NCBI GenBank assembly: GCA_905178155.1
Contig: CAJINV010000001.1
Span: forward strand, 13,018,635 to 13,082,634
Source: Amoebophrya sp. A120
Lineage: Eukaryota > Protista > Dinoflagellata
Direction of reading: 5' to 3'
Length of the DNA stretch: 64,000 bases
The translations under genes were made by a program, and so were the position numbers. This document shows positions 4,701 through 62,573 of the stretch, piece after piece; position 1 is the first letter of the stretch; every line of letters begins with the position of its first letter. The notes under the pieces were generated by a model. It was not told the origin of the DNA, did not search any database, and worked only from the letters and a program-made list of their open reading frames with translations.

Positions 4701-6796
4701 CTTGTTGAAACTGTTGTCCTGACGAGGTCGACTTGGACTTCTCTAATTCCGGCGTCGTTGTAGTGGAACTGGCACCTGGACCTGCGGCATCTCCCCTTGT
4801 CGAGGAGGATGACGTGCGATGAATTGGTGGGCGCTGAAGAGAAGTCAGATCAGCTTGTTGCTGCGACTCTCCTGAACATATCCCACGTCCATTATCCACT
4901 CGGTTCTCAAACGGTGGGCTTCGGTGTTGGGAACAACCTGCGTCGCCGGACTCCTGCAGAAACGCGCGGTCGATTAGGCTGGCAGATGACGCGCCGCCGG
5001 GAAGAGTCAACTCTTCGGCACTATCAGGCTGCGGGCCCGCACCTGCATCCGCTCCACAAGACCCCACAACTCCACGACGGGGCTGTAGCCCTCCCGCGCT
5101 CAACCCCAGCCGCAGTCGCTCTGCTTGCAACAGGAGCCGCTCCTGCATCTGCTTCTTGTGGGCTGCGACCTCACGTTGGACGATGTCAGCGTCTCGTCTC
5201 TCCTGTTCAACATCGCGAACTGAGCTAGAGGCTTTTGCAGACTGAAACTCGGATTCCGCTTGCTGAAATTCAGGCTGATTCAACAGCGAGAGCGGCTGAA
5301 GACGTTCATCTTCCTCATCGTTATCATCCTGTGCGAACTCGTCCACGACTTCGCTGCGACTCAGTTCCAGCAAACCATCCGACGTTTGCGTATCCAGCTG
5401 TCCTCGCCCCGCGCTGTTCTGGTTCGAATGGCAAGTGCTTGTTTTCCTATCCTGCAGTTGTTGTTCCTGGCTTCGGCGAGAGGAAGAAGAGTCACATGCA
5501 GCTCCACCGGTAGAGCGAGAAAATCCAAAAATCCGTTGCTGCTGTTGTTGATCTCGGTCTCGTGCGTCTCGGTCGGCTGACCAAGGAAAATCTGTCTGTG
5601 GACTGCAGTTCAAAACTCGCTGGTGCTCATCCAATATCGTGGCGTCTTGTCCGCCGTTCGGTTCTTCTCGATCATGATGTCCTTGTCCACCTCCACGACC
5701 TTTGCTTTTATTCTCCTTACCCGACATCAAGTCCAGCAGTTGCTGATAGTGCTTCTTAGAGTATCCAAAAAAAAAATGTTAACATTAACATTCTCACTAG
5801 TCAGCTTTTGAGTCAAAATAGCCGACTTTTTTTTGCAAATGTTAACATGTACCCAAAATTCTGCATTTCCGCACGGGAATCTGGAATCGTGGGGAAATGT
5901 TAACATTTGCCCGAAAATCTGCATTTTCGCTCGAGATTCTGCGACTTGGCCGAATTCCTTATTTTTGGCCAAAAATTGGCGCTCGAGCAAAATCGCAGAT
6001 TCCCGTGCGAAAATGCAGATTTTCAGGCAATTGTTAACATTTCGGCCAAAGTCCAGACTCCCGTGCAGAAATGCAGGATTTTGGGCAAATGTTAACATTG
6101 ACCGGCAAATTTGGTCAAAAGTTGCCATCTTTTTTGCGCAAGTGAAAATGTTAATGTTAACATTTTTTTGTTGAATATAGAGCTTGCAGATGGTGGCTCA
6201 AGTGGAAAGTGCTCCTCGTCGCAGCCGAAAGACCCACCTCCTGATGCCATATGATTTCTCCTGCTCTGATGCGCCTGTTGTCGCCGCAGCAATCGTTTCT
6301 GTGTCGAAGCCGACCGGGGCGATTCGCTATACAGCGGAGACTCGTTGTAGGGAGATTCCAAGTTTTCAGCCCGCGTGATGTTGTCAAAGTCGTGCGCGGG
6401 AGTCACCCCTACGTACGCAGCGTGTGTAGTAGTAGTTCGTGGCGGCGGAGATTCCTGCGGCGTTGGCAATTCCCAACAACTGTGCTGCTCAGAAACAACG
6501 TTCTCGTCTTGATCGCGATGAGAATCTCCACCAGGTCGTGCTGCGTTCTCACGTCGGCTCGTGTAGTCTTGCAAGAACTCTCCTGACGCCGCGATGCTGC
6601 GGTTCCGCGTGCTTTGCTTGCCTTTCGACGGTTGTGCAAGAAAAGGGTTGGAGCTCGTACTTCCGGTGAGACTCTCCCCAAACAACCGCGCGCCCGCACT
6701 GGGGCATCGTCGCATTTGCCGTGGGGAGCTACGCTCGCTTAGGAACGGATGCATTTGCATGGTGACGAGTCTGCTGCTAGCTGCACTTGGCCGCAA
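1757..6796 (-). CDS. Large low-complexity SAM-domain protein (multi-exon; 5' end uncertain)
   Basis: ORF 1757..3577 contains a SAM domain (~3140-3335: EWTLDEVLQWAARVGLADRIVEVLREEEINGSVLTSLREDDLQKLGLTKFGHRRSLMLELRKI). ORFs 6092..6796 and 4048..5730 join in frame (..ASS|KKHYQQLLDLMSGK..) after removing TIR element 5762-6177 plus one TSD. Linkage across ~3700-4100 by ordinary introns is inferred. Confidence 0.7.
5762..6177. mobile_element. Foldback/MITE-like introner, family A (416 bp), exonic insertion
   Basis: Termini tatccaaaaaaaaaatgttaacattaacattctcact / agtgaaaatgttaatgttaacatttttttgttgaata; TSD TAGAG at 5757-5761 and 6178-6182; internal ~60-bp subrepeats around the TGTTAACA palindrome arranged as a long imperfect hairpin; removing 421 bp restores the frame. 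Confidence 0.9.
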
Positions 6797-7383
6797 TACT
6801 TACTGACTAGGACGTAGTTGTAGTTCTTGAGATCCTCGTATTTTGAAAGCAGTATGCAGTAGGAGTCTAGCTACAACAAGTCGGCCGTATTCCGACGCTC
6901 TCACGCCTGCAAACGATGAACGACCTGATGAACCTTGTTCGTTGTGTTCATTCTCTTCTCTCAGTTTCTCTCCACGGTGTCGTCGACAGCACGACGGCGA
7001 GCTCACGCCTGCCCATCGCAGCGAACCATGACACAAGTACAGGTGACCGCATAGGAACAGCTGCAAGAAACGGTGAATAACGCTCGTCAGATGCTCACGT
7101 GGCGCTGCATAAAAGGACTTCGGTCAAACCATTCAAATCGTTATTTTTCAGTTCGCTCGAGCTCGAGTCAGGGGGCACGTTCAACTAATATAAATCGGGG
7201 GAATCTAGGTTGTTTTCCTGGTGGAAGGTCGTGCTGTGGTCATTAGATTTGGTTGTGGCTATGTAATTCTACTTTGACTTATATATTTTCCTCATCCACG
7301 ACCTCGTAGCATTCCACAACTAATAAATATACAGTAGCGAATAGATAGTACTACTCATGCATTCCTGTTCTTGAGAAGTAGAA

Positions 7384-9255
7384 TCACACCGGCACCGTTG
7401 CCGGGCTAAGGCAGAAGGGAAGACTTTTGCGCTGCTTGTCTGTCCAGACGTGCGGAGCAGTGGCCATGTCCGCCATTTTTGTTGCCGGGGCACCATGATT
7501 ACCGGCGTTGGCCACCGCGGTGGCGTCTGCCGTGCTGGTCGTCGACGCTGTGGTTGCCCATTCCATCGCGATCCCCAGCTTTGGGTCCCGCGTCAAGGTC
7601 GCTTCTAGCAGCAGGCTCTCTTCACTGCTGGCGCACCGCAGACAGGTCTGTAACTCGAAGAGCGGCTTACTCCACTGGTAGTCCAGATAGCACGTGAACC
7701 GCGCGTTAGCGTGCTTGTGCCCGCTGGTGACGCGGTTCCCGCTGGCCAGCGAATCCAGGAAAAAGCTGGCCCCGTGGTCCTCTTCGTGTCCCACGGAAGT
7801 CAAGGTGTCGCGCACGTCCTTGTTCCCGTCTACAAAATTGCGAAACGCCGCATAGAATTCCAGCAGGGTCGCGCGACTCGCCGTCTCCAGGTCGCCCGGC
7901 GTCTGCCCGGCCTGCTCGTCAAGGAGCAGCTTCCTGCGTAACGCCTCCATCTCATACAGCCCGACCACCGGCGTCCACTTTCTAGCGAGCGTGCGCTTGT
8001 TCAGTCCGCCGGAACCGCCCTGGCGATCGCCGTCGACCCCAGGCGAACCACTATCTCCTGCAATGGAACCACCGTTCCAGGCACGAAATGCTAAATGCAC
8101 CAGAAGGAAGAAGGCCACCTGTGCGACCACTAAGCAAGCGAGTTCCCGCCAGTGCTTCCGGAGGTGGTGACAAATCTCCGAGAGCCAGACAGGACACTTC
8201 CACTCCTTCACTCGGGATTTCATTTCCTCGGAAATGCGCCGCAACGGTACCGCCACGGAATTCTTCAAATCGTAGCCCGGAGAATCGACGTTCACATGCC
8301 AGACGTTATTGTTTCCGTTGTGCGAAGAACCATCGCCGGACAGTAGACCTCCTGACATCGGCGCATTCTCGTTTCCGCCGTTTTTTTCTAAATCAAAATG
8401 GAGCAGTCCGGCACGATTTCCTGTAGTTCCTGCAGAGGTAATATCCCGCAAAGGAAAATCCTCGTCGTCGTCGTCATCCACATGGCCCTCTTGCGACTGA
8501 AAGTCCAGAAGTCGTTTGCTCCGGAGGTCAAAATCCAGTTCGTCACAGAGTTCGTCCGCGTCGGAAGCATTGTCCAACAGGTTATACCCGTCTTTCTGGT
8601 GCTGCGTCACGAAAAATGCTTGCTCAACGACCCCACGACGTTCTCCTTTATTTCCTCCGGATTCGCCTGCTGGTTTAGGTTTTTTAACATTCTTGTTTAC
8701 TGCTGTGACAGAATCTTCGTCCTCTTCGTCCTCCAGCTGCAGATGCAATTCATGGATTGGCCGCAAAGCGTGCGTGATCTCGTCCTCTTCGTCGTCATCG
8801 CTGATGCACGCAAGCGCGCGTCGCTGAAACTCTTCCGTTCGTCCGTTCGGAAATTCAAACTCAGACCGATTCAGCTGCTGGCTGGTGTGCCTTGACACGT
8901 CGTGATTCAATTTCGACATCTGATCCTCCTATCCTGGAAAAAACACCCATCGCCATCCATTTTTTGCATGACAAATAGCGGATTTTATGCCTGTTTTGCA
9001 TGACAAATTGGATGGGGATGGGTGTTTTTTCCTGGATACCTCCAGCAACTTGACCTCGTCCTTGACGTGCACGTTCGTCGTGAGCAGCAGATTTGACGGC
9101 CTGAGTGTTGACGTCCCTGCACGTTGATGGCCTGCCAAAGAAGCCGCGGATTCCGAACCGGCGCTCTGGTGGGAAGAGGCCGTGTCTTCCATGAAAGAGG
9201 AAAGATTTTGAAACTCCCCCGCGTCGGAGGCAGTGCCCGACAAACGAATGGACAT
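7384..9255 (-). CDS. Hypothetical single-pass membrane protein (~585 aa), interrupted by an introner
   Basis: ORFs 8929..9261 and 7384..8919 join in frame (..VKLLE|DQMSKLNH..) across element 8930-9038; hydrophobic segment LACLVVAQVAFFLLVHLAF. Confidence 0.7.
8930..9038. mobile_element. Introner family B (109 bp)
   Basis: TIR tatcctggaaaaaacacccatcgccatcca / tggatggggatgggtgttttttcctggata; TSD CCTCC at 8925-8929 and 9039-9043; two GCATGACAAAT motifs; can be cut as a GT..AG intron using TSD bases. Confidence 0.92.
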
Positions 9256-10111
9256 GATCAATTTGTGCTAGGGAAATCGACTGGATTGTACTTGTAAATC
9301 ATCAAACTCATTCACTTTGCTACTCAACTGGACCAAAAACTACAACCGACAGACCAGAAGCAAAGCACGAAATTTGATGCAACTAGAAAAGACGGCTCCG
9401 AACAGATTTCGCTACGAAGATCAGTTTTTCGTTTGATTCAGACGGAACCATCGAGATCAACAGGAAGAGGATCTTGATCTTCAACTCCCAACAGATCAAA
9501 ACAGTAACAAAACAAGGCAACATTTTTACCACAACTACAAAACAAGGAACACAAAAACATGACCAAATCTGCGCAGTGTGGATGTGGCGTTGCTCTGGAA
9601 TGACCAGACCACTACTGTCCGACTTTTTTGGTTTCACTTTCATTCTACTTCGCCATCGCCACGATGGATCATGAACTTTATCAATTTTCCATATTGGATT
9701 TTCATCCGATTTTCCCGTGGTTAAAGGACAAAGACAAAGCCAGAACGTACACCACCGCTCTTTGGCTTTCCATTATCTCCTCCAGCGTTAATTTTTTCTT
9801 GAATGATAAATAAATTCATGATAACGTAGCTGCGAATCTTGACTCTGACTGTCTAGGAGGAGGCATTTAGAAATATCATAGATTCGTTTTCGTTGATTAT
9901 TGCAACGCGTCGCTCTCGCTGGTGCCCAAATTGTCGTTGGTTTTCGTCTTCAGAAGAAATGTAGATAATGCTGCAAGCGTAACCAATAAATTCTCACTCT
10001 GCAGCAAAATTAAGCGTTGTACAACTCACGGACTGGTGTGTCTGTGAGCAGAGTCGTTGTCGTAGCGTTTTTCTCTTTACAGAGCTAATCGTTGTTTATT
10101 TTATCAAAATC

Positions 10112-15277: not shown

Positions 15278-18200
15278 CTACCATATCGTCGAGAAGCGCT
15301 TTCCCCTTCCGGAATCGTTGGCGTTATTAATATGGTGCTTCTTCATCAGCTCAGCACCTCCACTGCACTGACCTCCGAACGACATCAACGCCCAGGTGTT
15401 CATCATTTTTCCCGCCTCGCACTGGTTCCAGCATTCGCTAGTCAGGGTTAGCTCCACATGGCGGTCCAGATTAAAACCCGCAAGAATCTCAATCATGTCG
15501 TCGATCGGCCACGTACTACTACTAGCACCCATCCCTGGAACTCGTTCAAAAATGATGCGGTCGGCGTCATGTTGACCGACACACACGGCCAAAATTTTTG
15601 CGACCAGTGCCTTGAACTCCTGTTTTTTCGCCTCGTCGCAGAACCGCAGAGTGCCGTCGTGTGGGTTTTCAAAGACTTCTTGCTCCTGCGGACGATGATG
15701 TTGATCCTGATGACGCATGCTAGTATCAAGAGAAAAACAGCAGTTCAGAAGATCAAACGGAATCGGTGTTGGCAAAAACGGCGCGCCATACATCAGGGGA
15801 GCACGGATCAAGGCCAAATCCTTCATGTGCACAAACGGTGTGGCTCTGGCTCTTTCGACAACGTCGACGTGATCCTCGTGGTAATGGAATTTTCCCTGCA
15901 GCAGCTGCTCTTTCGCCAAAGAAAACGATGTGCGCAAGAGCAGACTATCGGTGTTTGGTGACAAGAGTTGGGAAGTCTTGTTCTTCAAAGAGTTGTTGAA
16001 GTTTCGCCAGTCTCTCATCGCTGTCGACCGTTCAAATTCACCCAGCGAACAGCCTGAAGAGAGAGGACCATCAGGTAGTTGTACTCGGGGCTCGTGGTTC
16101 AACATCGCCATGTGCATCGCAACCGCCGAGAGAAATTCGTATGGGTTCGCGAACAAGGAACCTGTCGCAAAATTCCGACTCTCTTGCTGCAGATAGCTGG
16201 CATCTGACGGATGAAACACTTCGACTTCTCGTCGCTCCACATTCCTGGAGGATGAAAGGTTGTTCATCTTGTAGTTGCTGCTGTAATTTCTTCCGTTTCC
16301 CGCGCCGCTCGTTGTGTTCAGCCGGAAACCATCAGATTTGCATGTCACACGCAGTTCGTTCTCCATCTCATGCTCGGCATGGTGAAAGTCCGCGGCAGCT
16401 GGTACTAGCAGCTTTTCGAACTCGTGCATATCGGGAACAATTCGAACAATCACCGATCGTTTGGGCCGAGTACCAACAATCGAAGGGGAAGAATGCTGCT
16501 TGTTCTGGTTGATCCGATTGAAATTGGTTGTAGGAGCTCTAAGGTCGTGCGTCGTCATCATCTCGTTGTCTTCCGCGGCGAAATGCTGCTCCATCAAAAC
16601 GTCGCAACTGTTCTTCAGTGCCAGTTTCAATGCCGGCGGAGCTTGACTGCGACAGTACGAATGGTAGTTCTGCGCGCGAGGCGAGTGCAACAATTCCTGC
16701 ACATCAGTGCTCTTAAAACCCAAGGTTTTTCCGTGGGTGAAGGGGTTCCAGTGGCTCGCGTTTTTATCCACCAGGCTGTTCATCATGATCTGCGGGTATA
16801 ATTCATAGTACCGTGACATGTCCAACGTCATGTTGTTGCGATCTTGATACCACTTCTGCGAAAACGCGGGACTCTGGTCCCAGTAGTTCTGGTTGCAGTT
16901 CGTCTGCGATTGTTCTTGCTCCTGCGGCTGCGGCAGAAACGGGTTGTACAGCCTCTTGTTCGCATTCTGCATCCCTGGCGTCAGAGTCTGTTGGAACAAC
17001 GGAGTGGAAAACTCGGCGCAATTGTTCGTTTGTGTGGCTGTAGAGCAGCAGGTCTTGTTGCTTCTCATATTCATCATGATCGTGTTGCCATTGTGAAGAT
17101 TGCCATGCTGCGGAACAAGACCTTCCCGTCCCATAGCGGTGCTCATCTGCGACGAAACGAAGGGGTTCCGTAGAAAGTCGCCAGAAACAGGGTTTTGGTG
17201 GTGCTGGACGGCTGCACCCGGGAAGGAAGAGGCAAACGCAACCGCCCTGGCGGTCCCACTGGCAGACCGCCGTGCTGACGCACTCCTGGTGTTGTTTTTG
17301 TTACCGAACGAAGATGACAGCGTGTTGGGTTCCCGGTCCAATGCGGTCCGCGGCGACCCTGAGCGCGACCGAGACGACGAGCGGCGCGGCATACTGTTGG
17401 CGGCTCCGAAACTCCGCATCAGGTTGATGTCCGCGCCACTGTTGTAATTCCGTCCAGAAAGCTCGTGCACTAAATCGCGCGTATCCACGCTAATACTCCG
17501 CCGATTGCGGGAAAGCAGTGCCGTGTTAGTTTTCACCAGTAAGTCTTCGAAAAAGGGATCGGAGGAAGGCGTATGGAAGCGTCAGGTTTGAAATCGTCAA
17601 AGTTGAAATAATTTGTAATGCTAAACCGACCGAAACCACTACACAACCTGTAAGGGCACCGAACCGCACGTGGTTCGGCCACCAGGTCGCGGAGTCAGGC
17701 GGACCGAAGCCATCACCATCATCTGTAATAATTTGTAATGCATAAAATGCATGGCCCGAGGTGCGTGCGTTGCAGAGCAGGCAAGTGAGGCCAATTGTAA
17801 GCCTGTTTGGGGCTACAGCTCGAGCTGCTAAAGTAGCATGAGAAAACCACTCTTCTTTGCCTAAACAGCATGACAAACTGGATTTAGGGACCACCGAAAT
17901 TTGTCATGCGCCACTTGGAAACTGGGTTCCAACTGGCATCCATTTTATGCATGACAAATTATTTCAACTTTGACGATTTCAACTCTGACACATCCATAAG
18001 GCGGAATCGAAATTTCGTCGTCGTCAAGTGTGCGGCTCAAATAATCCGCAACAGACCCTGTGTCATTTTTTGCGAGTTCGGAGTTCCACGGATCTTCGCG
18101 TCCTCCGGTCTTGTCGGCGTTGAGAAAGCGCTGCAACTGCTGCTCCTGCTCATAATGGTGGTGCATCGTGGTCTGTACCTGCTGCTGGTCTTGCATGGGC

Positions 18201-20950: not shown

Positions 20951-22263
20951 CTTGTTGAATCTTGATGCTCCTAATGCAACGCTCCTACGTCGTGGTCCTA
21001 GTTCTAGTACCTATTGCTCTTGATTTTGATTCTAGTACCTTTATGCTTTATAATCCAGTTGTTGTGGGGGTGAACAGCAACAGACTGTACCCGTACTTCG
21101 CTGCTGCTGTAGCTGTAGGAGGTATTAACGAAACAAATGCGTATGTGGAGTAGTAGCGAAATGAATTTGATCGCGTTCGTTCAAAAAAAAAAACACGGAT
21201 CACCGAAATTCAGGAGAAGAAGAAAAGGGAAAGTAAAACGCTTTCCTTCCCGCCAAAGAGCAAAAAATTCAAAGAATGAATTTACTGCACCTGTTGAAAG
21301 AAGAAGAACAAGCTCCGATCGTGTAATAGCCTCATGGTCATGACCAGCACAGCAAAGCAAAAAAAACGAACCGAGGGGCCGACAGCCGCAGCGATCCAAA
21401 AAAAAAAGATGAAGATCCAAATTTGTACAGCGTAGGCCGGGAGCGGAAAAGTGAAGAACAGCATCAAAAAAAAAAAGGAAATACACACACACACACAGTA
21501 GCACAATCTCAAACCTGTCAATCAGGTTGATGTCAGAGAAAATGTAAGTAGCTGCTCTCTTCTTGTCTCGTATCTGTACATCATACACTAGAAAAGACTC
21601 TCCGCACAGCGCGATCTGCAGCAGATTTTCACGCTAGCGTAAGAAGTCGTTGTCAACCAGACATGTTGGTGCATCGGAAGCAGATTTTAGCATGTGCATC
21701 TTTTTCCTGTGCTTTCTTTCCTTTCCAACGTATGACACACAACATGACAAATGTATTTTTTCTTTCCTCGCAGTGGCGGTCGACGAATGAAATCCAGAAG
21801 AAGGAAGATCGAGGTCCTTCTGTCTCTTCTGAAGCTTATGGCTTTGAAGGCGAAGCGTGCGGCTTTCTATGACTATGCGCTTGTTTCTCACTGTGGTTCG
21901 TGGCTCTTCGTGTACTGGCAGCATGTGCATATTGGCGGCGTCATCACGACACGGAGGAGAGCGCTTTTTTGTTTCAAGTTTCGCAACAATTTCTTCACAG
22001 TTTTTTGCTTCTGTTTCCAGAAACGAAAATCGCTAATTTCTTCTGTAGTTGTAGCAAAGGCCAAGCGACAGGTCTTTCACACGCGGCTTAGCGCTAGAAG
22101 CTACCGTTCTTGCTGCACCACGTTCTGCTTGTTCCACCGACTGCCCATGTACATCTTGCAGCTTTCATCATCTACTTCAATAGCAACCGCTCCCGTAACA
22201 GGTACTTCCTCAATCATCACACAGGACACAATTACTGGAGCCGGTTATCTTGTGCCAAAGATT

Positions 22264-41030: not shown

Positions 41031-41728
41031 CTTCTTGTTCTAGGTGTATTTTTTGCTATTGCTGTCAAAAAATCCGACACAAAGGTAAAGTCTTCGTCTT
41101 GGTAGTTTGATCCAATCTCACCAGCACAAACACGCTATACAAGGAACAACATGAAGAACATAGATCAGCGTGGTCGTCTAGGTCTAGAACTACTGACTTC
41201 GAGTCAGATATTGTTCGGATTAGATTTAGAACTGCAGAAAGAGAAACGCACGCGGACGCGCGATATTGAATAAGCAGGAGGACATGAACAATACTCTGAC
41301 ATCGTAATCGTTCTACCATCTTCATTTGACAAAAAAAGGCGGGTCGCGGCCTTTTGATTTACATGCTACTTCCTGTATTTCTTCATCAGGAAGAAGATCC
41401 ACCAATAGAACTAGGACCAATAATTTGGATGTCGAGCTCTTTTTCGGAGGTCAATTTTTAGGTATTCTCAAGCAGCCGAATGCTGCGTCATCACGATGAA
41501 ACAAGCCATTGCAACGTTCGGACACTCGTAAACTCTGTACAACTTCTACGGAAGCGGTTGCTTGTAGTTGTACTTTATGTTTCTCTAGTAATAAACGCAT
41601 CAGGAAGATGAACTATAAACACAACGCGGAGACGACCTACAACTGCACCGGAACAGCCATCCATTTTTCTACCTCGGACATTTTTCATCGGGGCGATTTA
41701 TTGCTATTCGTCTCCTACTAGACTGATG

Positions 41729-49046: not shown

Positions 49047-51138
49047 GATGAAAGAATGACAATGATGTGCAACGACACGACTACACAATCCGTTACCTTA
49101 TTTTTTTCAGCAGGGTCACCAGGGTAGCATTTTCGCTGCGGTCATGCTCATGGCCTAGATGCTGCAACAACGTACAACAAACCGAGTCATGAAAGTTCAA
49201 AGTCCCAAAGAAATGCCGCATTTTCAAGGACACGACATGCAAAAATGCAGTGATGAAATCAAAATCTTCTTGCCAACTAGATTGAGGTCCTGTTATAGAC
49301 TTCACATGCCACTTGTTCCCAGGTGGTTCATGCGAGTGCGACAAATGCGAGTCACAGCCAATGGTGCGATATTTCTGAGCGCGAGTATGATCAAATACAA
49401 CATGCTTTGGGTCATGCTTGATTGAAATAAATGAAGCAGCAATGCAACACAACAGGAGAAACCAACATATATGTATGCAACCGAAAGCGAAGCAAAATGG
49501 TTGTGCTGCCACCGAGGAAATGCGTAGCTTGTTTCTTCTCGCTGCAACAGATGATCCATCGCAGCCGACGGGCCATATCATGATACATCGATTTTCAATC
49601 ATCGTTAGTTAGTGTTAGACAGATTGTTTTTAATTTTGGCAAGAGCAAATACGAATAGACCGACACATGTGAGTCAGATCACAATAACCGACACACTGGA
49701 TCAGATCACAATGACCGAAAGTCAAAACTGTGTTCCCAAGATCAAACCATGGACTGCAATCGTGGTGCTTCTCTTTAGACACAATCTCTCCGTCCGAAAA
49801 CCCGTCCGTCCACAAACCAGATACAGATCGGGACAATCAATAGGAATAGAAATAGCTATCAGAAAACAGAATTCGTGCACTGGTCGACGCGCAGTAGAAC
49901 ACCACGAACACGATCCGGCGACGACGGACCCCAGGCCGCAAGCAGTAGCTGCCTAGGAACAGGAATGCATTTTCATCCTCTCTGTAAAAGGCTTCGTTGG
50001 TTGTGAGGACCACTCTGGCGCGTGTCGTTGGTGTTAAAGAAAGCAGAATGGTTTCTGTAAGACGCGGGGGACAGCAGCAAGAAGAAACTACAACAGCATG
50101 ATCCGCAGCGAGTTTCAACAATCATACTCATCTCCTGCACCTTACCTAGAAAATTCTGATAAGTTCTAAGATCATCGTGTTGGTGTGACCTCATAACTTT
50201 TTGTTGCGAAATCGAAATGTTCAGGAGTGGTTAAAAAACAAAAAGCGTGGATGATGGCGGCTTTGAGTTCACGGTCCTGCGTTGCGTTTTCTTTTGGTTT
50301 TCGCTACGTACACTACATGAAAAGCTGAATCATTCATGACTTGTTGCATCTTCTATTTTTGCGCTGAAACGAAAGCTGTTCTCGATGAAGATAGTTTGTT
50401 CATATTACGTCAAATTCTGCACAAAAACGAGCTATGTCGATGCGACAAATCTGTTGCTAGTAGAAGTCATGATGCCTTTGAAATCGTAGAAATTAGCAAT
50501 CATCTTTTCGAGTGTTCATTTTTGGTAGTGTTGCACCAGCAGGAAATGCAGGCCGCGCGATATTCCAGGCCTAGAAACCCGGTATCAAACAAAATGCCTC
50601 CCCTATTTTTTCCCATGTTGCCTCGGCATCAAAAGAAGAATGGCAGTTCTCCCGAGAGACGAACGAGAAAGACCACCACCCGCGTCGTGGTCGAGCTTAT
50701 CGCTTTGAAATAGAAACATAGTACGGAGAGTCGCTCACAGCCACAGACGTTGAATCCGCCTGTGTCACGGCGTCATATAAGATGTATATTCAGAATATTT
50801 CGGGTCTTCGTCTACTTGATGTCTGCTGCGTTGCTCTTGACAGCACAGTTTTATCGACATCAAGTGCAGGAAAATTCTTCTGCCTCGAGTTTTTTATTTT
50901 TTGCAATATTTATAATCGGTGCTACTTTTTTTACGCTGGGAAGAAGTAGTCCCACCAGGAAAAGTTTTGTGGAAGATGCATTTGATGTATTATGTGTTTG
51001 AGTTTGACTTTCTTATATCGACTCTTGTTGCACGTTGTACAACCAGTTGTCGATTCAATATTTCAATAGTTGTTTATTCGTTGTGCGCTTCGATAATGGA
51101 AGTCCGAATTCGAAACCAATACTTCGCTCCACTATTAT

Positions 51139-54100
51139 TTAGTCCACCTGCATGCTCTCCGGCTCCACCTTTGGGGCGGCGTCTTCGGAAGTGGTGTCTT
51201 TCGGGGCGGCGGCATTTTCGGCTTCGTTCTCGGCCTGGGTGCTGTCACCCTCGGCGTTGCTGCTTGCCATCGGTTCGTCCTTGGATTCTGCGTCCGCCTG
51301 GTGCTCACCCTCCGTCTCCACAACCGGGGCTGGTGGCGGTGCCGGCTTCGGTTCAGACATAACCTTCTTGCACTCCTTGCGCAACTCCTCAACCTTCGCT
51401 TGGATAGAGGCAGCCTGCGTGTAATTCAAAAGTTTTTGTCCAAATTCTCGTTTTCGAATTCCAAAATAGAACAAGGCCCGGCACGAACTTAGTAGAAGTG
51501 GAAGGCAAGAATGATCATGAGTATCTCGACTAACTATGATAGGTTAGGAATTGTATATTTATTGGAAGCCTCATCAACATGATAGATTAGGAATCAATAC
51601 CGTGAAAGCCGGGTCGACATCCTCATACATTTCCTTTGCGTTTTGCTTGGAATTTTGTTCCGTGCCCCATGCCTCCAGCTGTTCGACTGCCGCGAGAACC
51701 TGCTGCTTCTTCTCTACTGCGATGTGGGCGTAGCTGTGATTTGTGGTTGTAAAAAGTATTCGCATATTCTAGCGCCGCGAGTTATCGGAATTTCGCATAC
51801 TGTTGGACGGTTCAGCTTGTTCTTGAGCCGGAGCCGCCACAAAATAACACCACAAAAGATGCAAAACCAAGAATATGACTCTGCAAATGAAGTAGAAACG
51901 AAAATGCTACAACCACAAGAATCAATGAAATACTCCTCTGATGGGTTGTTCAGGGCCGTGCGGACTTCCGTGAGAGCTGCTGAGAAGATCGGCTGGTAGT
52001 TTTTCAGGTCTTCTCGGTCCTGGTGGCGCTTCATCACTGGCTTGCCTGTTCGTTGTTGAGAAATTTAAACTTATCAATCACATTTCAGTCGCCAGCATCG
52101 CCCTCGTGGTACTTCTTCACGCTCATTCTTTCTACTCATCTAGCTACTCACACCACAAAAAGTTTGGAACTTTATTGCGGCAACGAGGCAAAGGCCATTA
52201 AATTCAGAGACAAGGACAGCAGGTGTAAAAGCGAACCAAATGCAAGTTCTTTTTGATATATCGTATCTCCAACACGAGCAAGAGCACGTGCTTGGCTTTT
52301 ACTTAAATTCATCTATCACACGGCTAAACGCTTCACTTTTAAAAACTTCACTTGCTAAAAAAAATCTTTTTTTAGTGAGGTTTGGCGCTGTTGCTTACAG
52401 CATCAGCAGCTACGTGCCGACGACGGCATTGCGGCGCGTGCACCTTCTGGATCAGTGGAAGGACGACTGGGCCTTGCTTTGGGGGGTAGAGGTTGGCAGT
52501 TGACTAGTGAAGACGCCACGGCTTATAATTCTGAGAGCGAAACTCCCGAAGAGTCTTCATTTGAGTAAGATGAAAGCAAAGCGGAGACTTTTGTGTGCGA
52601 AAAAGTGAAAAAGTCGATGACTTGACAAAAAAATGAATCGCTTGTGGGTTTTTTGAGCGTAGCACCGGCCGAAGAATCAGCAAAAATCCAGAAACTGGCT
52701 CCGGTGACAAACGATTCACTTTGGCCATATTTGGCCGCCGCAGCATCGGCGCAAGCTTCCAAAAACGAGCACTTTTGAAAATCATCGAAATGGTGCATCA
52801 AAGCGATGCTTTTGTGACAAGTGCTATGTTTTTGAGGCGTTTTGGGTTGGACTCAGCTCGTGGCTGACAAGCGATTCACCTCACAAAGTTGGCCAGTTTT
52901 GGTGGCCCGAAAGTGGCTCTGTTTTTGAGGCCTTTTGGGTTGGAGCATAGGCGTGGCTGACAAACGATTCACCTCCTCGAAACAGCTGCTTTGCTTTCAG
53001 AGATCCAAAAAATCCCCCAAAGAAAATTTTTTTTAAGGAGTGAAGTTTTTAAGCGTGAAGCGTTTAGCCTTGTGATATCATCGGAGGTCAACAAATATCA
53101 TACCAATGCCCTGCAGTTCGGCGAGCTTGTCGCAGAGCTCGACAGTGGTGGCGTCAAAGTGGTCGTACAACCAATCCTCTGCGGTCTGCAGTTGCGTTGC
53201 GAATGCGGTCTTCTCATCCGGCTTCATGTATCTGCATTTTATTGTGTGTTTGCCATGAAATTTTTGACGTTTCAGACATCAGCGATGCTTCTGCTTCTTT
53301 CGGCCGGGTTCGGTTGTAACGGCGAACAGCAACAGTATAATACGCATGATTTACGTATGATAAAGATATTGGCAGCGCACTCTGCCACGCAGCCCGCTGT
53401 GTTACTCCACTTGTCCTGTCCGAGCCCGCATGCGCATACTCTTACTGTCTAAACAAGTACAAGTACGAGTAGAAAAAACAAACAAAGCACTCATCTTCAT
53501 CATGAAAAAAAACAAAAAAATACGCGCTGGCAATGCCGGAGGATGAGGTGACCTTATCTTTCATGTCGTAGATGTAGGATTCCAAGTCGTTTCTCCTGTT
53601 GTCGTTTTCCTTTACGTCGCGCGTGTCGGACTGCAACTTGGATTCAACATCCTTGAAACCGCTGAGGAGCTTCTCACTCGTGCCTGGCTGCCCCTTCACG
53701 CTTACCTGTTCATTGGATGTGGTCATAGACATAGTTTTCGAGGAAGAGAAACGAGAGCAACATATATCCCAAATACTATCTACATTTAGATTGACTGACG
53801 AAAGCACGCAAACATGGACATTAATATCATGAAAACTTTCATCTATCGAGATAGAACATCAATCATCTCGACGATGAGTCAACAAATATCCTAGAAATAA
53901 TTACGTACCGTCAATGGGGTTCGCTTCGTTCTCTTTTTCGGCTTCTTGACGTCGACCCACTCGTACTTTGGTTTTTTCTCCTCCTTTATCAACTGTAAAA
54001 ATGTCTGGGTCTGGAAGATTCTGACACTTGTCATGCACATTTGCATGACCCCTGACGTCTGTGACGCATACCCTAGCATCACAGATTTTTTGAGGGCTTC

Positions 54101-56598
54101 CTGATGCCTATACCGCATGACAAATGCTCTCTCCGTGTAGCAAAACTTGGGCTCTCTTTGCTACTCATGCAATACAGATTCTTTTAGAATCCAAAATCAG
54201 CATGACAAGTTGCATTCTTCCAGACCCAGACATTTTTACATTTGATATCCTTCTTTTCCTCCTTTTTCTCCTCGCCGTTTGCGGCGGGTTTCTCCTTTTC
54301 CTCGCCGGCGCCGCCGGTTTCCTCACCGCCCTTGTTGTCTGCGTCCGGCATGGGCACGTCCTCGGTGGAGGCCGGCGCCTCTACCTCGGGCTCGACGACC
54401 TCGCGCTTTTCCTTGACAATCTCCTCGTACTCTTCGATCTCCACGATCTGTGCGCTGTCCACGCTGAAAATGCCGTGGATGCTCATCTTGGCCTCGATCT
54501 TGATTTTCTTCTTCTCCGGCTGCTCGGGGAGCTGCACGGAGTACTGCCCGATGTTCTGCTGGTTGTGGCTGTACTGGGCTCCGATGTCGAACGGCCCGTT
54601 GCGGTACCAGGTGATGTAGCGCCGCTGATCCGTCTTGTCTTTGCTCGCGTTGAACACCTCCATTGACTTCTGTGTCAATGCCGGCTTGTCTTCCACCTGG
54701 AATCGATTGTGGAGAGGAAGGTTGGTTGGTGGAGAGAGGACCGCGATGACGAGGAAAAAAATCATCTCTCTCCTGTCTAAAAATCCAGTAAAAGCTGCAA
54801 GTACTGCTTGTGATTGACTAAGCCCAACAAGTCTGAAAAGGACAAGGATTGATTCGATTTTCCCTGCTTTCGACATAGATACGAATGGAAAAAGAAGAGA
54901 AAATCCGAACTTCAAAAAAATAACTTCAATCACAATCATACCGGTGCGGCGTCTTCCATCTGCGCATCGCCATCCTTGTCTGCCTTGTCGGCTTCGGTGG
55001 TATCCGTTTTGGAGCCCATCCAGGTAATCGTCACTCCGTGTGGAACCTTGTCCTCGATGGCAAAATCTCGCACCTTGTAGGCCGGGGACAAAATGGCCGC
55101 CATCAGCGCGCAACCACGGGCAATGCACTCATCCGCGTTCAACGTTTTTGAGAGGTCGCGGCCTGTTCGGTTTTTTTATCGAGAGATAAAAGAAGTTCGC
55201 ATTTTGCATCAGCGCTGTGCTCGGCGTGCTGGCGATCATTCATCATTATTTCTGGATTTCTTCATCGAAAAGAAGCAATCGATGTAAGTAGTTCATGTTT
55301 CATGATCAAAAGCAAAAGCTAGTACTATTCGAAATCTATACCGAGCATCTCCTTGACGATGTTTTGGAACCAGGGTACTCGACTCGCCCCGCCGATGATT
55401 TCCACGAAGTTGATATCATCAATCCCGGCCAACCCGGATTCAGTCAAACACTTGGAGATGGCCTCCCGTACGCGCTTCTGCAGGGGTTCGCACATTTTTT
55501 CGAAGTCTTCCCGGGTAACCGACCCGCTCAGGTCCTCGTCTTCCATCAAGCACTCCACGTTGATGGGTGCCTGGTCGTTGGCGGAGAGGATTTTTTTACA
55601 TTTCGTCACCGCGTCCTCCAGCTTCAGTTTAGCCTTCTTCGAGGTCAGCGGATTGCAGCCGAACTTCTTGTTGAATTGCTCGGAAAAGTGCTCGACCAGG
55701 CACTTTTCCATCTCCCGCCCGGCGCACTGGATGTCGGACACCTCGGCCAGGACGTTCAACTTGCCCTGTGTGAAGCTGGCGATGGAGATGGAAAAGCTGG
55801 AGTGCCCCATGTGGGCAAACGCGGTGATGGTGGGCTTCTCCACGTCAAAGTCCCGGGTTCGGTAGATTCCGTACGCCAGCGCCGTGGCGGTGTGTTCGTT
55901 CATCAACCGGAGGCAGTTCAAGCCCGCGATCTGCGCAGCGTCCAGCATCGCCTGACGCTGGAAGTCGTTAAAATACGACGGCACGGAGATCACCACGTCG
56001 ACGACCTGTTTTTGTGAACGAAGAGGAGAAGATAGATGGGAAATGAGCAAGAAAAATCCAAACCACATCAAGATCGGAAAAACAAAAACAGAACATAGGA
56101 ATCAAACAATAAGCTAGTATCATCTCCGTCTTCCAGCACATTAAAATGCAGTAGATTTTTTGTTCTTACCCTGCTCTGGCACCAGTTTTCGGCGGTTTCC
56201 TTCATTTTTGTCAGGTACATCGCCATGATTTGCGTGGTCGAGTACTGCTTTTCTTCCCCTTTGTAGTTGACGCGGTACGCCGCAGCGCCGTCCTCGGATC
56301 CGTCGCAGGACTCCGCCAACTGCCAAAACTTCTCCCGGGTGAGCTGCTCCTCGATGACCGCCTGTGGTCCCATGACGTGGCGGAAGTTTCGCACCGTGTT
56401 TTTGAAGTTTGACTTTTGCACGGTCGCGGCGCTGTCCCCCAAAAGGCGCTCGCGGTCGTTGAAACCGACCACGGTCGGGGTCTGCCGCTGGGACACCTCG
56501 TTTTGCACGATGTCGACGCCATTCTTACACACGTATGCGATGATACTGGTATTGGTACCGATGTCGATACCGACCGTGGTGCTTCCTTTCAACGACAT
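51139..56598 (-). CDS. Hsp110/HSPA4 (SSE1-like) chaperone and nucleotide-exchange factor, multi-exon
   Basis: [24 protein letters not shown]; [43 protein letters not shown]; [14 protein letters not shown]; acidic loop; [14 protein letters not shown]; DWLYD. Confidence 0.93.
52314..53077. mobile_element. TIR element family D (764 bp) nested inside an ordinary intron of the Hsp110 gene
   Basis: TIR tatcacacggctaaacgcttcac / gtgaagcgtttagccttgtgata; TSD TCATC at 52309-52313 and 53078-53082; internal repeats tgacaa(a/g)cgattcac x3 and tttttgaggc.ttttgggttgga x2. Confidence 0.9.
53987..54247. mobile_element. Introner family E (261 bp) in an Hsp110 exon
   Basis: TIR tatcaactgtaaaaatgtctgggtctggaaga / tcttccagacccagacatttttacatttgata; TSD TCCTT at 53982-53986 and 54248-54252; removing 266 bp joins ..EEKK|[12 protein letters not shown].. 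Confidence 0.92.
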
Positions 56599-58206
56599 TT
56601 TGTAGTTTTGCGAAATTTAATATTCAAGTAGTCTTTGGTGCTATAGCAGCTTATCTAGAAGCGAAATTTTTCGATGACGTCTAGTCTGTCTGTAGTCGTC
56701 GTGAGCGTGAAGACAACAAGAAGTGATAGATAGTTGCGTCGAAATTAGCTTTGATAAAATCACAACCAGGTGGATAAAAGGAAGCCTCAGAGTGTAGAAA
56801 ATCTACGTCGAATGCAACTAAAAAAACAATGCACAAGGCAAGGCCGCTGAACTGTAGCTGACTGGTATGTAGTTCAAAACGAAATTAGAAATGTTTGTAT
56901 GATGCCACGAGGCGAAAGGGAAAGGATCCAATCGTCCAAAAGACGGCTTGATATTTTTCTGATCTTGTTTTGTCCGTTTCGAATTTGTATTTGATCTGGT
57001 TCGATTTGGGATCTTAGCGCTTCAGACGTGTGGCCTTGCTGATCTTCTCGTCTATGGCTTGATTTTGGTAGTAGGTTCGTGTGTCTTGTGCTCTTGGATC
57101 TTATTGTGAATGACAAGCAACGCGACCAGCGAAGTCGGAAAGTTTAGGTAAAAGATGTCTAGAGTCGGAAAATTTATGAGGAAAGTCACGACTTCGCTTC
57201 AATTTTGTGGTCTTAGTTTGAGGTCACAGAAGTATTAACTGAATTAACTCCGAGCCAACTCGAAAAAAAACGGGGGTTTGGATAATATGCTCAAGTTCTG
57301 GGCGGGTTTGGGTGACTGCTGTTACTTTCTCATCGGTTCGTTCATTCAATCTTAGTATTTTTGCCGAGCATGATCAAAAACAAAATCATTCCTGCTGCTG
57401 CTGGTGATGCTTTCTTTTCGTCCTTACAGCACTACAACTACATCCTGTATTTTGTCATTAAGTAACACGACCGATTGATGCCAGCGAAGTTCCTTTAATG
57501 GCTCGCTGTAGCTGATAGATCGTGTTCCGCTTGTTGATACCATCCTCTTCCTTATTCTACCGTACTAGGTGCAACTCTTGCAAGTGGATCACGAAGTAGC
57601 AAGAGCTTCTTTTTTCTGTGCTTGTAAGCACAACATCATCGATCGTCACCGCCGGATGAGCGGGAGAACACGAGCAGGACGTGGTCATCACGTTCGCTGA
57701 GTAATAAAAAGGAGAACAAGAAAGACAGATGTTGTCCTCGTATTTGTTGGTATTGATTGTACAAACACGCCCGCGCTTCTTTTTCCGCAACTTGTTCAAT
57801 CAGTTGTGTACTACGCGGAGTTAATGTACCCGTGACATCTGCTATTTTTGCAAAATTGCGCCTGTTTGTGCTTCAGCATACTTGTGACAATTAAGAATAA
57901 GACCTCCACCTCGACCTCCACCTCATCTGTGGTGTATTATTTGTGACCTTGACTTATTAATGGAACTTGATAGCTCTACCTTTAGCTACGTGACTCGGTA
58001 CCTTATTGCACAGTAGTGCAACCACGACCTGGAAGAAAATATACACAACCAGGAGAGCAGGGAGGACGCACTTCTCCTTTCTCACTTCAATTAAAAAACC
58101 ATACAAAAAATTCCCCAGAAGGTGGTGAAGCGAAGCACGTCCCGTCCGGTTCCGGTCATTGCACCGTAGAAAAAAAAATGCTCCAGGCTGCACCGTCCTG
58201 GGAGCG

Positions 58207-61200: not shown

Positions 61201-62573
61201 CACGTTTACGTAGCTTGGTCGAGGACGCTAGAAGCCCTCCCTGGCAGACTCACTTTAAGAAAGTTTAAGTACGCACGACTAAGCGGTCGAACAATATACA
61301 ACCTCTAAGTATACGTCTTACCTCGTATGAATTTGTCCTGGAACGCGAGAATGGAGGAAAGACTGCACTCAGTCGAAACTGGTGCGCACAGGAGGTCGTT
61401 TATTCGGTCGGGGCACATCACGAACCCCGCGTCCCGGCAGTTGTCGTACAAATTCATGATGTACTCGCCGCCCGTCCATATGGTGGTGTCGTCCGCGAAC
61501 AGATGGTGGATGGTTTCGGTCAGGTTGGTCTTGATTTTCAGAAACTCCTTTCCCTTTCGCGTGAAGCCCTGGATGCTTTGGCCGCAGGCAGCAAAGATCT
61601 TGTCGCGGCCGGACTGCAGGACCACTTTGGTGATCTCCCGCCCGAGGTTCTGCGACTTCCATTCGATTTGTGTCTCGCCTCGTTTTAGGTAAAACACCGT
61701 CAGCACACCGGAGTCGTCGCCTACGCACACTTTCTGTTGCTTTTTCTTCGCCAGAGGTAGCACACACAGCTATCAAGACAGAGCAACCTCCGCAAGAAGC
61801 AAGAAACAAAAATGCAAGTACGTCCGTAGGAGCCAAAGGTCGTAGCCTAGTACATGTACAACCAACATCAACAGTGACCAGGAGTTCCTCCAAAGCTGCA
61901 TATCATGCACGTAGGTATGGGTCGAAGACTCCGAGTGAACCTGGATAGAAGGTGGGCAAGTAGGCACGTAACTAATGCCTTCCTACAGCTACAATAGATG
62001 CTAGAGTCAATGTCCAGCTTCTTGCGGTGCTGTTCTTGCGAAAGATACAAGCGTGTTTCGGTTCATGGGCCCCAGCTGGAGGAAATCCAGCCGATGGATG
62101 TCCATGTCGAACGTATGGCGTTCTCAAATGTTACATTCTCAGCTGTTGCCTGATTTGTCATGCTTAACAGACTGCGCTACCGAGCCCGGGGGGGTGCGGG
62201 GTCCGAGGGGTGCACAAAGCACAGCCCGGAACACCCGAACATGCCCCGCGACTGGCACAGGACCAGCAACGCAACTATTATCGTCGATCTCAGTTTGTCG
62301 ATCACGACGTAGCTGCGAAGCCGTCCATACGCCTGGCGCCCCAAGCCCAACCCAACCCCCGAGGCCTGATTTGTCATGCAAAATTCCAATCAGAATTGAC
62401 ACGACCAAGCTGCTTCGCATGACAAATTCCCGAAGGGACAAACAGGATGAGAATCTGCGCCAAATCTGTCACGCAAGAGGCGCAATCTTCCCCCTTTCAG
62501 TTTTGCCATTCTTGCATCACAAATTCATGCAACAGTTGACAATGTAACGTTTGAGAACGCCATAGAACGACAT
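58207..62573 (-). CDS. BBS7: Bardet-Biedl syndrome 7 protein (BBSome subunit), multi-exon
   Basis: MSFDMDIHRLDFLQLG..; QKVCVGDDSGVL; DKIFAACG..GFTRKGKEF..TNLTETI; VKPLSLHEK; MNELRLSGNFTLMDMHHWMSLCLPDVP; YKSTFLGTLLQCQYSKG..FRSDSITTISVVRD. Confidence 0.92.
62114..62564. mobile_element. Introner family F (451 bp) at codon 3 of BBS7
   Basis: TIR tatggcgttctcaaatgttacattctcagctgttgc / gcaacagttgacaatgtaacgtttgagaacgccata; TSD GAACG at 62109-62113 and 62565-62569; removing 456 bp gives AAA ATG TCG TTC GAC ATG GAC. Confidence 0.9.

What the first reader, a model, noticed from the sequence alone, without database searches (positions are those of the whole stretch)
5757..62569. System of TAT...ATA / 5-bp-TSD inverted-repeat elements acting as precisely removed non-canonical introns
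Seen: nine elements (5762, 8930, 17572, 25881, 27480, 29048, 52314, 53987, 62114) in six families with different TIR sequences share TAT...ATA ends (one CAT) and a 5-bp TSD. Eight are in coding sequence. Element+TSD lengths are 421, 114, 432, 114, 313, 313, 266 and 456 bp, and each restores the frame, including the four lengths not divisible by 3. Hosts include conserved genes (Hsp110, BBS7) and conserved domains (Sushi, TMEM184-like). Sliding the cut through the TSD gives GT-AG only at 8930; the best others are GA-AG (53987), GT-AC (25881, 62114), GT-CG (27480), GC-AC (17572), AT-AC or AC-AG (29048), and nothing recognisable at 5762. Established: Amoebophrya genomes are reported to carry non-canonical introners with inverted and direct repeats, with the removal mechanism unresolved. 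Inference: removal is guided by the terminal hairpin plus the direct repeat rather than by U1/U2 dinucleotides, either at RNA level or as IES-like DNA excision.
Basis: partly seen in the sequence, partly recalled or inferred. Interest (0 to 1): 0.92.

Follow-up and report, generated by a model that had tools for sequence, protein, structure and literature searches.

The report
Hairpin introns cut by fixed ruler
Small hairpin-shaped mobile elements interrupt genes of what is likely the marine parasite Amoebophrya and are missing from transcript assemblies but present in a DNA-like run; such introns are already described, but the cut likely falls at a fixed distance from the hairpin, not at normal splice signals or the flanking repeat, which would make their unknown removal mechanism directly testable.

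Summary
All nine TAT…ATA elements with 5-bp target duplications (TSD) are real (0 in 12 shuffles), and I found a tenth (44247-44484). Transcript contigs that skip GT-AG introns also skip five elements as element+5 nt; a DNA-like run keeps the four it covers. 52314 lies inside a canonical intron; 5762, 8930 and 17572 remain untested by RNA. These are the introner elements of Amoebophrya A120 (Farhat 2021); a 5-bp TSD with TA termini is noted in Gozashti 2025. New here: the direct repeat is apparently not the guide. At 44247 only a 4-bp repeat remains, yet 5 nt are removed. Two RNA junctions and four orthologue comparisons in a second assembly (about 270 elements) allow one shared register: intron = 1 nt + TAT…ATA + 4 nt. 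Its 5′ end, N-TAT, lines up with this genome's canonical GTA(T); target sequence and element orientation do not matter. Best reading: RNA-level removal positioned by the hairpin, likely by a relaxed spliceosome (0.5); a Euglena-like non-spliceosomal route is the main rival (0.38). DNA excision and reverse-transcriptase artefact are unlikely. The scan noted similar hairpin introns on other genomes before.

The parts
5762..6177 (-). TAT..ATA element, 416 bp, TSD TAGAG (+ strand); predicted intron 5758-6178, AT..CT
   Evidence: removal joins a 776-codon frame; not tested by RNA
8930..9038 (-). TAT..ATA element, 109 bp, TSD CCTCC; predicted intron 8926-9039, GT..AG
   Evidence: 589-codon frame; 84% identical to 25881 in opposite orientation; not tested by RNA
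17572..17998 (-). TAT..ATA element, 427 bp, TSD AGGCG; predicted intron 17568-17999, TT..CC
   Evidence: 1766-codon frame; no flank-spanning RNA contig listed
25881..25989 (-). CAT..ATA element, 109 bp, TSD CGTGC, in the Sushi-domain gene; intron 25877-25990 in the fixed register, GT..AC
   Evidence: 114 nt skipped in X1 and X3 contigs
27480..27787 (-). TAT..ATA element, 308 bp, TSD GACCG/GACTG (1 mismatch); intron 27476-27788 in the fixed register, CT..GT
   Evidence: 313 nt skipped in X1 and X3; transcript keeps TSD position 2 from the upstream copy, registers 2-5
29048..29355 (-). TAT..ATA element, 308 bp, TSD ATGTC; 90.6% identical to 27480 in opposite orientation; intron 29044-29356 in the fixed register, TT..CA
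   Evidence: 313 nt skipped in X1 and X3
44247..44484 (-). tenth, decayed TAT..ATA element, 238 bp; flanks TAATC/AATCC share only a 4-bp repeat; intron 44243-44485, TT..TT
   Evidence: 243 nt skipped in X3 (depth 112.6) and X2 (4.2); X5 continuous over 44001-45258; only registers 3-4 fit
52314..53077 (.). TAT..ATA element, 764 bp, TSD TCATC, inside the canonical GT-AG intron 52046-53103
   Evidence: joint 52044|53103 in X1, X2, X3; no Pfam hit in its 5 longest frames
53987..54247 (-). TAT..ATA element, 261 bp, TSD TCCTT, in the Hsp70/Hsp110-type gene; intron 53983-54248 in the fixed register, AT..GG
   Evidence: 266 nt skipped in X1, X2, X3, not in X5; spliced frame 894 codons, 614 if retained
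62114..62564 (-). TAT..ATA element, 451 bp, TSD GAACG, at the 5′ end of BBS7; predicted intron 62110-62565, CT..TT
   Evidence: X1 contig piece starts at 62565 with 2743 nt of the same record on the far side; the joint row itself is among 28 rows not shown
21557..30400 (-). host gene (Solute_trans_a and Sushi domains) with three elements and two canonical introns (24324-24451, 24781-24967)
   Evidence: one X3 contig of 8176 nt spans all five joints; 2249-codon open frame
49965..56853 (-). Hsp70/Hsp110-type host gene with eight canonical introns, element 53987 as an intron, and element 52314 inside an intron

Best explanation
The elements are non-coding terminal-inverted-repeat insertions with 5-bp target duplications that are missing from transcript assemblies as element plus five bases; they are likely cut from the pre-mRNA at a fixed distance from the predicted hairpin (one base before TAT, four after ATA), likely by a relaxed spliceosome, and likely spread by a transposase not found here. 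Step by step. Shown: structure, RNA-side absence, presence in a DNA-like run, both orientations removed, no target-sequence requirement. Inferred from six junctions: the single register exon-T1T2T3T4 | T5-TAT…ATA-T1T2T3T4 | T5-exon. Because 1+4 equals the 5-bp duplication, any insertion in either orientation restores the original message; the repeat is a by-product of insertion that makes the ruler neutral, not a signal that is read. Inferred: the 5′ end N-TA(T) is read in the register of canonical G-TA(T), with +1 and the final AG no longer checked and the hairpin setting the 3′ cut. Inferred and weakest: the mobiliser is an integrase-type DDE transposase of the Ginger/IS3EU/IS481EU neighbourhood.
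For: RNA side: 5 elements skipped as element+5 in contigs that also skip GT-AG introns, with no other letters; X5 keeps the four elements it was laid on. Register: 27480 allows 2-5 and 44247 allows 3-4; A120 orthologue residues allow 4-5 at L035:3334-3590 and L041:3468-3749, 2-5 at L041:105-260, 0-4 at L003:307-658. Only register 4 fits all six; registers 0 or 1 also create stops at L041:3468, L039:532 and L039:4990. Repeat not needed: 243, not 242, nt removed at 44247; 7 of 171 coding-assigned elements have 2-3 TSD mismatches. No co-opted splice site: GY-AG possible in 0-4 of 170 coding insertions per register and TSD composition close to coding background. Orientation: 27480 and 29048 are opposite in one mRNA; 28 vs 29 for the main family. 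Spliceosome hint: 12 of 12 canonical introns start GTA, 6 GTAT; the nine commonest A120 non-canonical motifs all have T at +2 and the A25 ones are all TT, with A25 repeats starting TTA (Farhat Table S4 and section 11); nearly all spliceosomal proteins are present and U1 snRNA was not detected.
Against: No intermediate (lariat or circle) was seen, so the enzyme is not identified. A spliceosome that ignores +1 and the 3′ AG and works on a base-paired 5′ end is without tested precedent in what I read. Only two junctions are RNA-based, both from assembled contigs, which drop minor isoforms; the four orthologue cases assume the retained copy is the conserved one and come from a second strain without RNA. 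Table S4 motifs depend on how the aligner placed ambiguous junctions, and Farhat's Fig. [quoted passage not shown] TSD mismatches are more frequent at T1-T2 than T4-T5 (24 vs 13, p 0.04-0.12), which a pure ruler does not predict. 11 of 76 confidently scored elements gave another frame offset, probably scoring error but not checked. No transposase was found.
Confidence: 0.5

Rival explanations
1. Same RNA-level ruler, but a separate non-spliceosomal endonuclease and ligase recognises the hairpin base, as proposed for Euglena nonconventional introns, releasing circles or linear hairpins.
For: No AG, +1 base or orientation requirement. Strong terminal pairing predicted in all ten elements. Euglena uses fixed spacers of 3 nt before and 5 nt after a paired motif, and its authors favour non-spliceosomal factors (PMC12501133 sections 8 and 12).
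Against: The 5′ cut coincides with the canonical GTA(T) register and the T at +2 recurs in both strains' tables. The Euglena signature (N3CDG…CHGN5-6|R) is absent. No candidate enzyme was looked for.
Confidence: 0.38
2. Removal is guided by the direct repeat as well as the hairpin (homology-directed joining at RNA level), with a sliding cut inside the repeat.
For: 231 of 271 elements keep a perfect 5-bp repeat; mismatches are rarer at T3-T5 than T1-T2.
Against: At 44247 a 4-bp repeat is ignored and 5 nt are removed. L035:3334 and L041:3468 have 3 of 5 mismatches and stay collinear with orthologues. Perfect repeats are expected from recent insertion alone.
Confidence: 0.05
3. IES-like DNA excision in a transcriptionally active life stage; transcripts come from element-free DNA.
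For: Transposon-type ends and a shared subterminal motif TGTCATGC (22 of 25 window copies inside 7 of 9 elements) could recruit a transposase. Only one DNA-like run, of unknown stage, was laid, and contigs drop rare variants.
Against: X5 has junction-spanning pieces and depth 0 at the element-free joints listed. The 4+1 register holds relative to transcription although elements lie both ways. No germline/soma split is known to me in this lineage (recalled).
Confidence: 0.04
4. The skips are reverse-transcriptase template switches across a hairpin, and the genes are broken or the elements retained in vivo.
For: Template switching makes apparent non-canonical splicing (PMC2923612 abstract); hairpin plus short repeat is the classic setting (recalled); library types of X1-X3 are not on record.
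Against: At 44247 the junction has 1 nt of ambiguity and bypasses the 4-bp repeat, in two samples. Retention truncates host frames. Genes with 5-10 elements stay 92-93% identical to orthologues.
Confidence: 0.03

Closest known systems
Introner elements (IEs) among the non-canonical introns of Amoebophrya A120/A25 (Farhat et al. 2021, PMC7789003)
   Same: Inverted repeats at intron ends, 3-5 nt direct repeats over the boundaries (5 bp in the Fig. S19 legend), A120 repeats starting TAT + seven variable bases + A-run, RNA-seq-supported removal, many families, mechanism open.
   Different: The paper leaves the border unknown and calls the splice sites variable relative to the hairpin; here one register (1 + element + 4) fits all six informative junctions, and removal survives loss of the repeat.
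A120 TIR DNA introner families in Gozashti et al. 2025 (PMC12130899, Dataset S2)
   Same: Non-autonomous TIR elements of about 105-810 bp with about half non-canonical annotated ends; family 38 is annotated 'Ginger, 5-bp TSD, TA/TA termini'.
   Different: Their automated calls give mixed TSD lengths (2-6) and mixed 'carry/co-opt' mechanisms across the 40 of 58 A120 rows I saw; here all families share one TSD length and one register. I did not match my families to theirs by sequence.
Euglena nonconventional introns (Nomura et al. 2025, PMC12501133)
   Same: Paired ends, no GT-AG, fixed spacer between paired motif and cut, probable MITE origin, unknown machinery.
   Different: Motif CDG…CHG with spacers 3 and 5-6 and a purine after the 3′ cut, versus TAT…ATA with spacers 1 and 4 and no such base requirement seen.
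Canonical introners of Aureococcus, Micromonas, Symbiodinium and Polarella (PMC9860276 passages; bioRxiv 10.1101/2020.10.14.339549 passages)
   Same: TIR/TSD insertions whose splicing restores the message.
   Different: Those carry or co-opt GT/GC/GA and AG from element or TSD, so target sites are constrained; here GY-AG is possible in at most 4 of 170 sites per register.
IS3EU/GingerRoot, IS481EU and Ginger2 DDE transposons (PMC10045372 passages)
   Same: TA..TA termini (IS3EU/GingerRoot), TNT..AYA termini (IS481EU), 4-5 bp TSD (Ginger2).
   Different: IS3EU/GingerRoot usually make 6-bp TSDs and IS481EU about 4, 15 or 25; no transposase was found here, so the superfamily is unassigned.

Membership tests
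Amoebophrya A120-type introner elements | Non-canonical intron supported by RNA data | tested here: met
   5 of 10 elements shown skipped; 62114 indirect; 52314 inside a canonical intron; 3 untested
Amoebophrya A120-type introner elements | Terminal inverted repeat able to form a hairpin | tested here: met
   TIRs 29-60 bp, terminal pairs predicted; 44247 decayed but paired
Amoebophrya A120-type introner elements | 3-5 nt direct repeat over the exon/intron boundary | tested here: met
   5 bp in 9 of 9 listed elements, one with a mismatch; 4 bp at 44247
Amoebophrya A120-type introner elements | Repeat starts TAT, seven variable bases, then an A-run | tested here: met
   TAT at 99-100% and A at positions 11-13 in 88-94% of 542 ends (loci were chosen by a pattern holding an A-run, so enriched); the 17572/27480/29048 family lacks the A-run there
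Amoebophrya A120-type introner elements | Repeated families in the genome | tested here: met
   within the window; 80-91% matches for 7 of 9 elements in the second assembly; far higher X5 depth over element ends
Canonical U2-type spliceosomal intron | GT/GC…AG ends | tested here: not met
   1 of 9 intron-forming elements (8930) is GT..AG in the inferred register; none possible in any register at 27480, 29048, 25881
Canonical U2-type spliceosomal intron | Lariat intermediate with a branch point | not testable with these tools
   only assembled contigs laid; raw-read runs X9 and X10 had 0 reads on the stretch
Euglenid nonconventional intron | N3CDG…CHGN5-6|R signature | tested here: not met
   ends are N-TAT…ATA-NNNN versus the signature
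Euglenid nonconventional intron | Cut at fixed spacer from a paired terminal motif | tested here: met
   one register fits 6 of 6 informative junctions; works-like resemblance only
Euglenid nonconventional intron | Release as circular RNA | not testable with these tools
   no intermediate data
Ciliate-type IES (DNA excision) | Element absent from the transcribed DNA | tested here: inconclusive
   X5 keeps 44247, 52314, 53987, 62114, but one run of unknown stage and contigs drop rare forms
IS3EU/GingerRoot | TA..TA termini | tested here: met
IS3EU/GingerRoot | 6-bp TSD (usual) | tested here: not met
   5 bp
IS3EU/GingerRoot | Integrase-like DDE transposase in an autonomous copy | tested here: inconclusive
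   no transposase domain in 49 of 197 frames scanned from long elements and unpaired ends; no whole genome available

The most novel reading that the evidence does not exclude
Amoebophrya has a second, non-spliceosomal RNA excision machine that measures from the base of any TAT…ATA hairpin (1 base before, 4 after) and so erases every 5-bp-TSD insertion of this transposon group from mRNA whatever the target sequence or orientation: a host-level immunity to a whole transposon group, convergent with Euglena's unknown machinery.
Probability: 0.35. Interest if true: 0.88.

Novelty: already known. Interest (0 to 1): 0.6.

Why it matters
The elements and their removal are published, but the mechanism is an open question: Farhat et al. 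could not place the borders of these introns, which make up most introns in A120. A single register turns tens of thousands of ambiguous junctions into defined introns with a 5′ end N-TAT and a free 3′ end. It explains why any insertion is harmless (1+4 = TSD length), gives exact predictions for odd TSD lengths, and tells experimenters where to look for a branch or ligation product. If the spliceosome does it, it would be one that checks neither +1 nor the final AG; if not, there is a new RNA excision enzyme to find. It also gives a simple rule for annotating these genomes.

Tried and rejected
No whole genome is held for the window and the second assembly's records are not held for genome search, so no genome-wide scan or transposase search was possible. 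No RNA holder is on record for 5000-14900; I treat X1-X3 as transcript-derived because they skip GT-AG introns, and X5 as DNA because it skips none and has flat depth. Raw-read RNA runs X9 and X10 gave 0 reads on 10500-30400: no test. Viral contigs: 0 matches to the main-family end. Pfam scan of 49 of 197 frames from long elements and unpaired ends: no transposase; at least three long 'elements' are mis-pairings that hold nested elements. Pfam on flanks of decayed-TSD elements: no domains. Phase bias: TSD-start phases 45/36/73 would read as the usual phase-0 excess in register 4 (or 1), but a strand-symmetric target preference explains part of it (expected 0.29/0.33/0.38, p 0.023) and it is weaker in a second scoring (52/47/72): not used as evidence. 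G excess at T4 (z 3.1) is one of 68 cells: not used. TSD mismatch asymmetry is borderline (element-level 18 vs 9, p 0.12). No consistent drift of decayed TSDs towards AG or G (2 gains, 2 losses of AG at T3T4 among 30 listed). Open frames cannot tell 242 from 243 nt at 44247 (391 vs 380 codons); only the RNA contigs do. L041:2212 (synonymous), L039:532 and L039:4990 (no aligned orthologue) gave no residue test. Searches that found no paper stating a fixed register. Not seen: all figures of Farhat 2021 (S19-S25 bear directly on the register), 18 of 58 A120 rows and file 14 of Gozashti 2025, and subscription papers (Roy 2023 final version, Henriet 2019, Huff 2016).
Full report
Observation. Each begins TAT (CAT at 25881) and ends ATA, has a 29-60 bp terminal inverted repeat and a 5-bp flanking direct repeat; 27480 has one mismatch. 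No other repeat length from 2 to 8 fits, and 12 dinucleotide shuffles gave no such element. BLASTN gives six families; a motif TGTCATGC has 22 of its 25 window copies inside 7 of the 9 elements, which suggests (inference) one mobilising protein for several families. All long frames are on the minus strand. Removing element+5 nt joins frames of 776, 589, 1766 and 1454 codons. Pfam confirms Sushi, a weak Solute_trans_a, HSP70 and BBS7 in host frames, 17 frames scanned.

Organism. The window is 51.1% G+C; A120 is listed at 48.8% A+T (PMC12005148, passages), and Farhat et al. say A120 repeats start with TAT. I therefore read it as A120-type Amoebophrya; this is an inference.

RNA and DNA. On 10500-30400, contigs of X1 and X3 skip two GT-AG introns and the elements 25881 (114 nt), 27480 (313) and 29048 (313) with no other letters; one X3 contig of 8176 nt spans all five joints and gives a 2249-codon frame. 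The raw-read RNA runs X9 and X10 laid no reads. On 44001-64000, X1, X2 and X3 skip 53987 (266 nt) and ten listed canonical introns, while X5 skips none, has flat depth near 43 and crosses the element-flank junctions (28 joint rows were not shown). The run types are not on record: I call X1-X3 transcript-derived and X5 DNA from this behaviour. 52314 lies inside the canonical intron 52046-53103. For 62114 an X1 piece starts at 62565, the first base after the element, but the joint row is hidden.

A tenth element. One search also shows a joint 44242|44486 in X3 and X2 (two samples). It is a decayed member of the system: 44247-44484, TAT…ATA, left end 95% like element ends in other loci. Its flanks, TAATC and AATCC, share only the 4-bp repeat AATC. 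Removal by that repeat would take 242 nt; the contigs lack 243, with one base of ambiguity, and X5 confirms the genomic letters. So element+5 is removed even when the repeat is not 5 bp.

More copies. A pattern from the 53987 end found 136 stretches in the metagenome collection, stored as 135 loci (398 kb) whose contig names all share one assembly prefix; viral contigs gave none. These loci hold 271 elements with a 5-bp repeat and at most one mismatch (231 exact; at least three long ones are mis-pairings), median 261 bp, ends TAT + variable 4-10 + A at 11-13. The set is enriched for the searched family. Of 251 testable, 170 were assigned a coding strand; element+5 lengths fall evenly mod 3 (60/48/62), TSD composition is close to coding background, and GY-AG is possible in 0-4 of 170 in each of the six registers. 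Scoring the two flanks separately, 65 of 76 confident cases (of 222 tested) need 5 mod 3 extra bases removed. The main family lies with or against transcription 28 to 29 times, and 7 of 171 coding-assigned elements have 2-3 TSD mismatches. In the window, 27480 and 29048 are 90.6% identical, lie in opposite orientation and are both removed from one transcript.

The register. Call the number of TSD bases kept from the upstream copy the register (0-5). RNA allows 2-5 at 27480 and 3-4 at 44247. Four genes of the second assembly have A120 orthologues (92, 93, 69 and 93% identical). Removing element+5 gives collinear peptides at 17 of 19 such junctions in L041, L035 and L039 (two lie in unaligned repeats) and at the four of L003, two with short flanking exons. 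Where TSD copies code differently, the orthologue matches registers 4-5 at L035:3334 (Q, not R), 4-5 at L041:3468 (PF; register 0 is a stop), 2-5 at L041:105 and 0-4 at L003:307 (G, not E). Three further mismatched sites were uninformative for residues. Only register 4 fits all six: intron = last TSD base + TAT…ATA + first four TSD bases. The orthologue cases assume that the retained copy is the conserved one. In this register the window's introns read AT..CT, GT..AG, TT..CC, GT..AC, CT..GT, TT..CA, TT..TT, AT..GG and CT..TT: +1 and the last two bases are free, +2 to +4 are TAT.

Mechanism. All 12 canonical introns seen start GTA, six GTAT, so N-TAT sits in the canonical 5′ register. Farhat's Table S4 lists nine commonest A120 motifs, all with T at +2, and nine A25 motifs, all TT, where repeats start TTA; this agrees but depends on aligner choices. 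Nearly all spliceosomal proteins were found and U1 snRNA was not detected. I put 0.5 on a relaxed spliceosome positioned by the hairpin and 0.38 on a separate enzyme, as suggested for Euglena, where fixed spacers of 3 and 5 nt flank a paired motif. Repeat-guided joining (0.05) and reverse-transcriptase switching (0.03; abstract of PMC2923612) both fail at 44247. DNA excision (0.04) is disfavoured by X5 and by a register tied to transcription. That removal is at RNA level and set by the hairpin has about 0.88 in sum. Results that do not fit neatly: mismatches are commoner at T1-T2 than T4-T5 (24 vs 13; p 0.04-0.12), 11 of 76 frame offsets disagree, and the phase bias is partly explained by target preference. 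No transposase was found in 49 frames scanned. TA..TA termini recall IS3EU/GingerRoot, but those usually make 6-bp TSDs, so I do not file the elements there.

Comparison with print. Farhat et al. 2021 (PMC7789003; abstract, passages, sections 10-12 and 16, supplementary legends S19-S25, Tables S4-S7; no figures) describe these elements, their RNA-supported removal and the open mechanism, and leave the borders unknown. Gozashti et al. 2025 (PMC12130899; passages and 40 of 58 A120 rows of Dataset S2) annotate family 38 as 'Ginger, 5-bp TSD, TA/TA termini' while the text says it lacks Ginger termini and TSDs. I also saw passages of PMC11282704, PMC10045372, PMC12005148, PMC9860276 and bioRxiv 10.1101/2020.10.14.339549, and the abstract with sections 8 and 12 of PMC12501133. 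Searches found no paper that states a fixed register or independence from the repeat; unseen figures S19-S25 and subscription papers may. Four earlier notes of this scan describe similar hairpin introns in other protists; they are unchecked and lend no support.

Verdict. Observation confirmed; interpretation partly supported. The system is already known. The added geometry (1 + element + 4, repeat and orientation irrelevant) rests on six junctions and makes the open question testable. Interest 0.6.

Noticed in passing
   Followed up: yes
L039:3329-3608: Element with a perfect 8-bp TSD in coding sequence; 8 minus 5 is 3, so a fixed ruler would add one codon and keep the frame. The A120 orthologue lacks the extra residue.
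   Followed up: partly
L041:105-4531: One gene of about 970 codons carries ten elements in 4.4 kb, with exons as short as about 50 nt, and stays 93% identical to its A120 orthologue over the region searched.
   Followed up: partly
window element ends; loci L001-L135: The two TIR arms mismatch most at positions 4-10 (up to 51% at position 7) and almost never at 1-3 and 11-13; 7 of 9 window hairpins have a bulge at positions 6-8. Could be a transposase spacer or an RNA recognition feature.
   Followed up: no
window:5762-6177 and 52314-53077: These two families lack the shared TGTCATGC motif (5762 repeats TGTTAACATT instead) and had no BLASTN match in the 135 loci; possibly a different transposase partner.
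   Followed up: no
window:54247 and 62114 (run X5, table 5c): DNA contigs from elsewhere in the genome show element ends separated by only 26-36 bases, implying micro-exons between adjacent elements.
   Followed up: no
window:39684-41039 and 49965-56853: Two Hsp70-like genes about 10 kb apart on the same strand (both have a GIDIG-type N-terminal motif, recalled as the Hsp70 ATP-binding start); only the second was scanned.
   Followed up: no
window:10628-13747: 1040-codon frame with a PAM2 motif and a C-terminal eIF4E domain; transcribed in X3.
   Followed up: no
window canonical introns (12): All start GTA and end YAG (11 CAG, 1 TAG), with no obvious branch-point consensus or polypyrimidine tract by eye.
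   Followed up: partly
L043:3001-3972, L052:4772-5919: Longer elements (972 and 1148 bp) without nested copies or Pfam domains; possible deletion derivatives of an autonomous element.
   Followed up: partly
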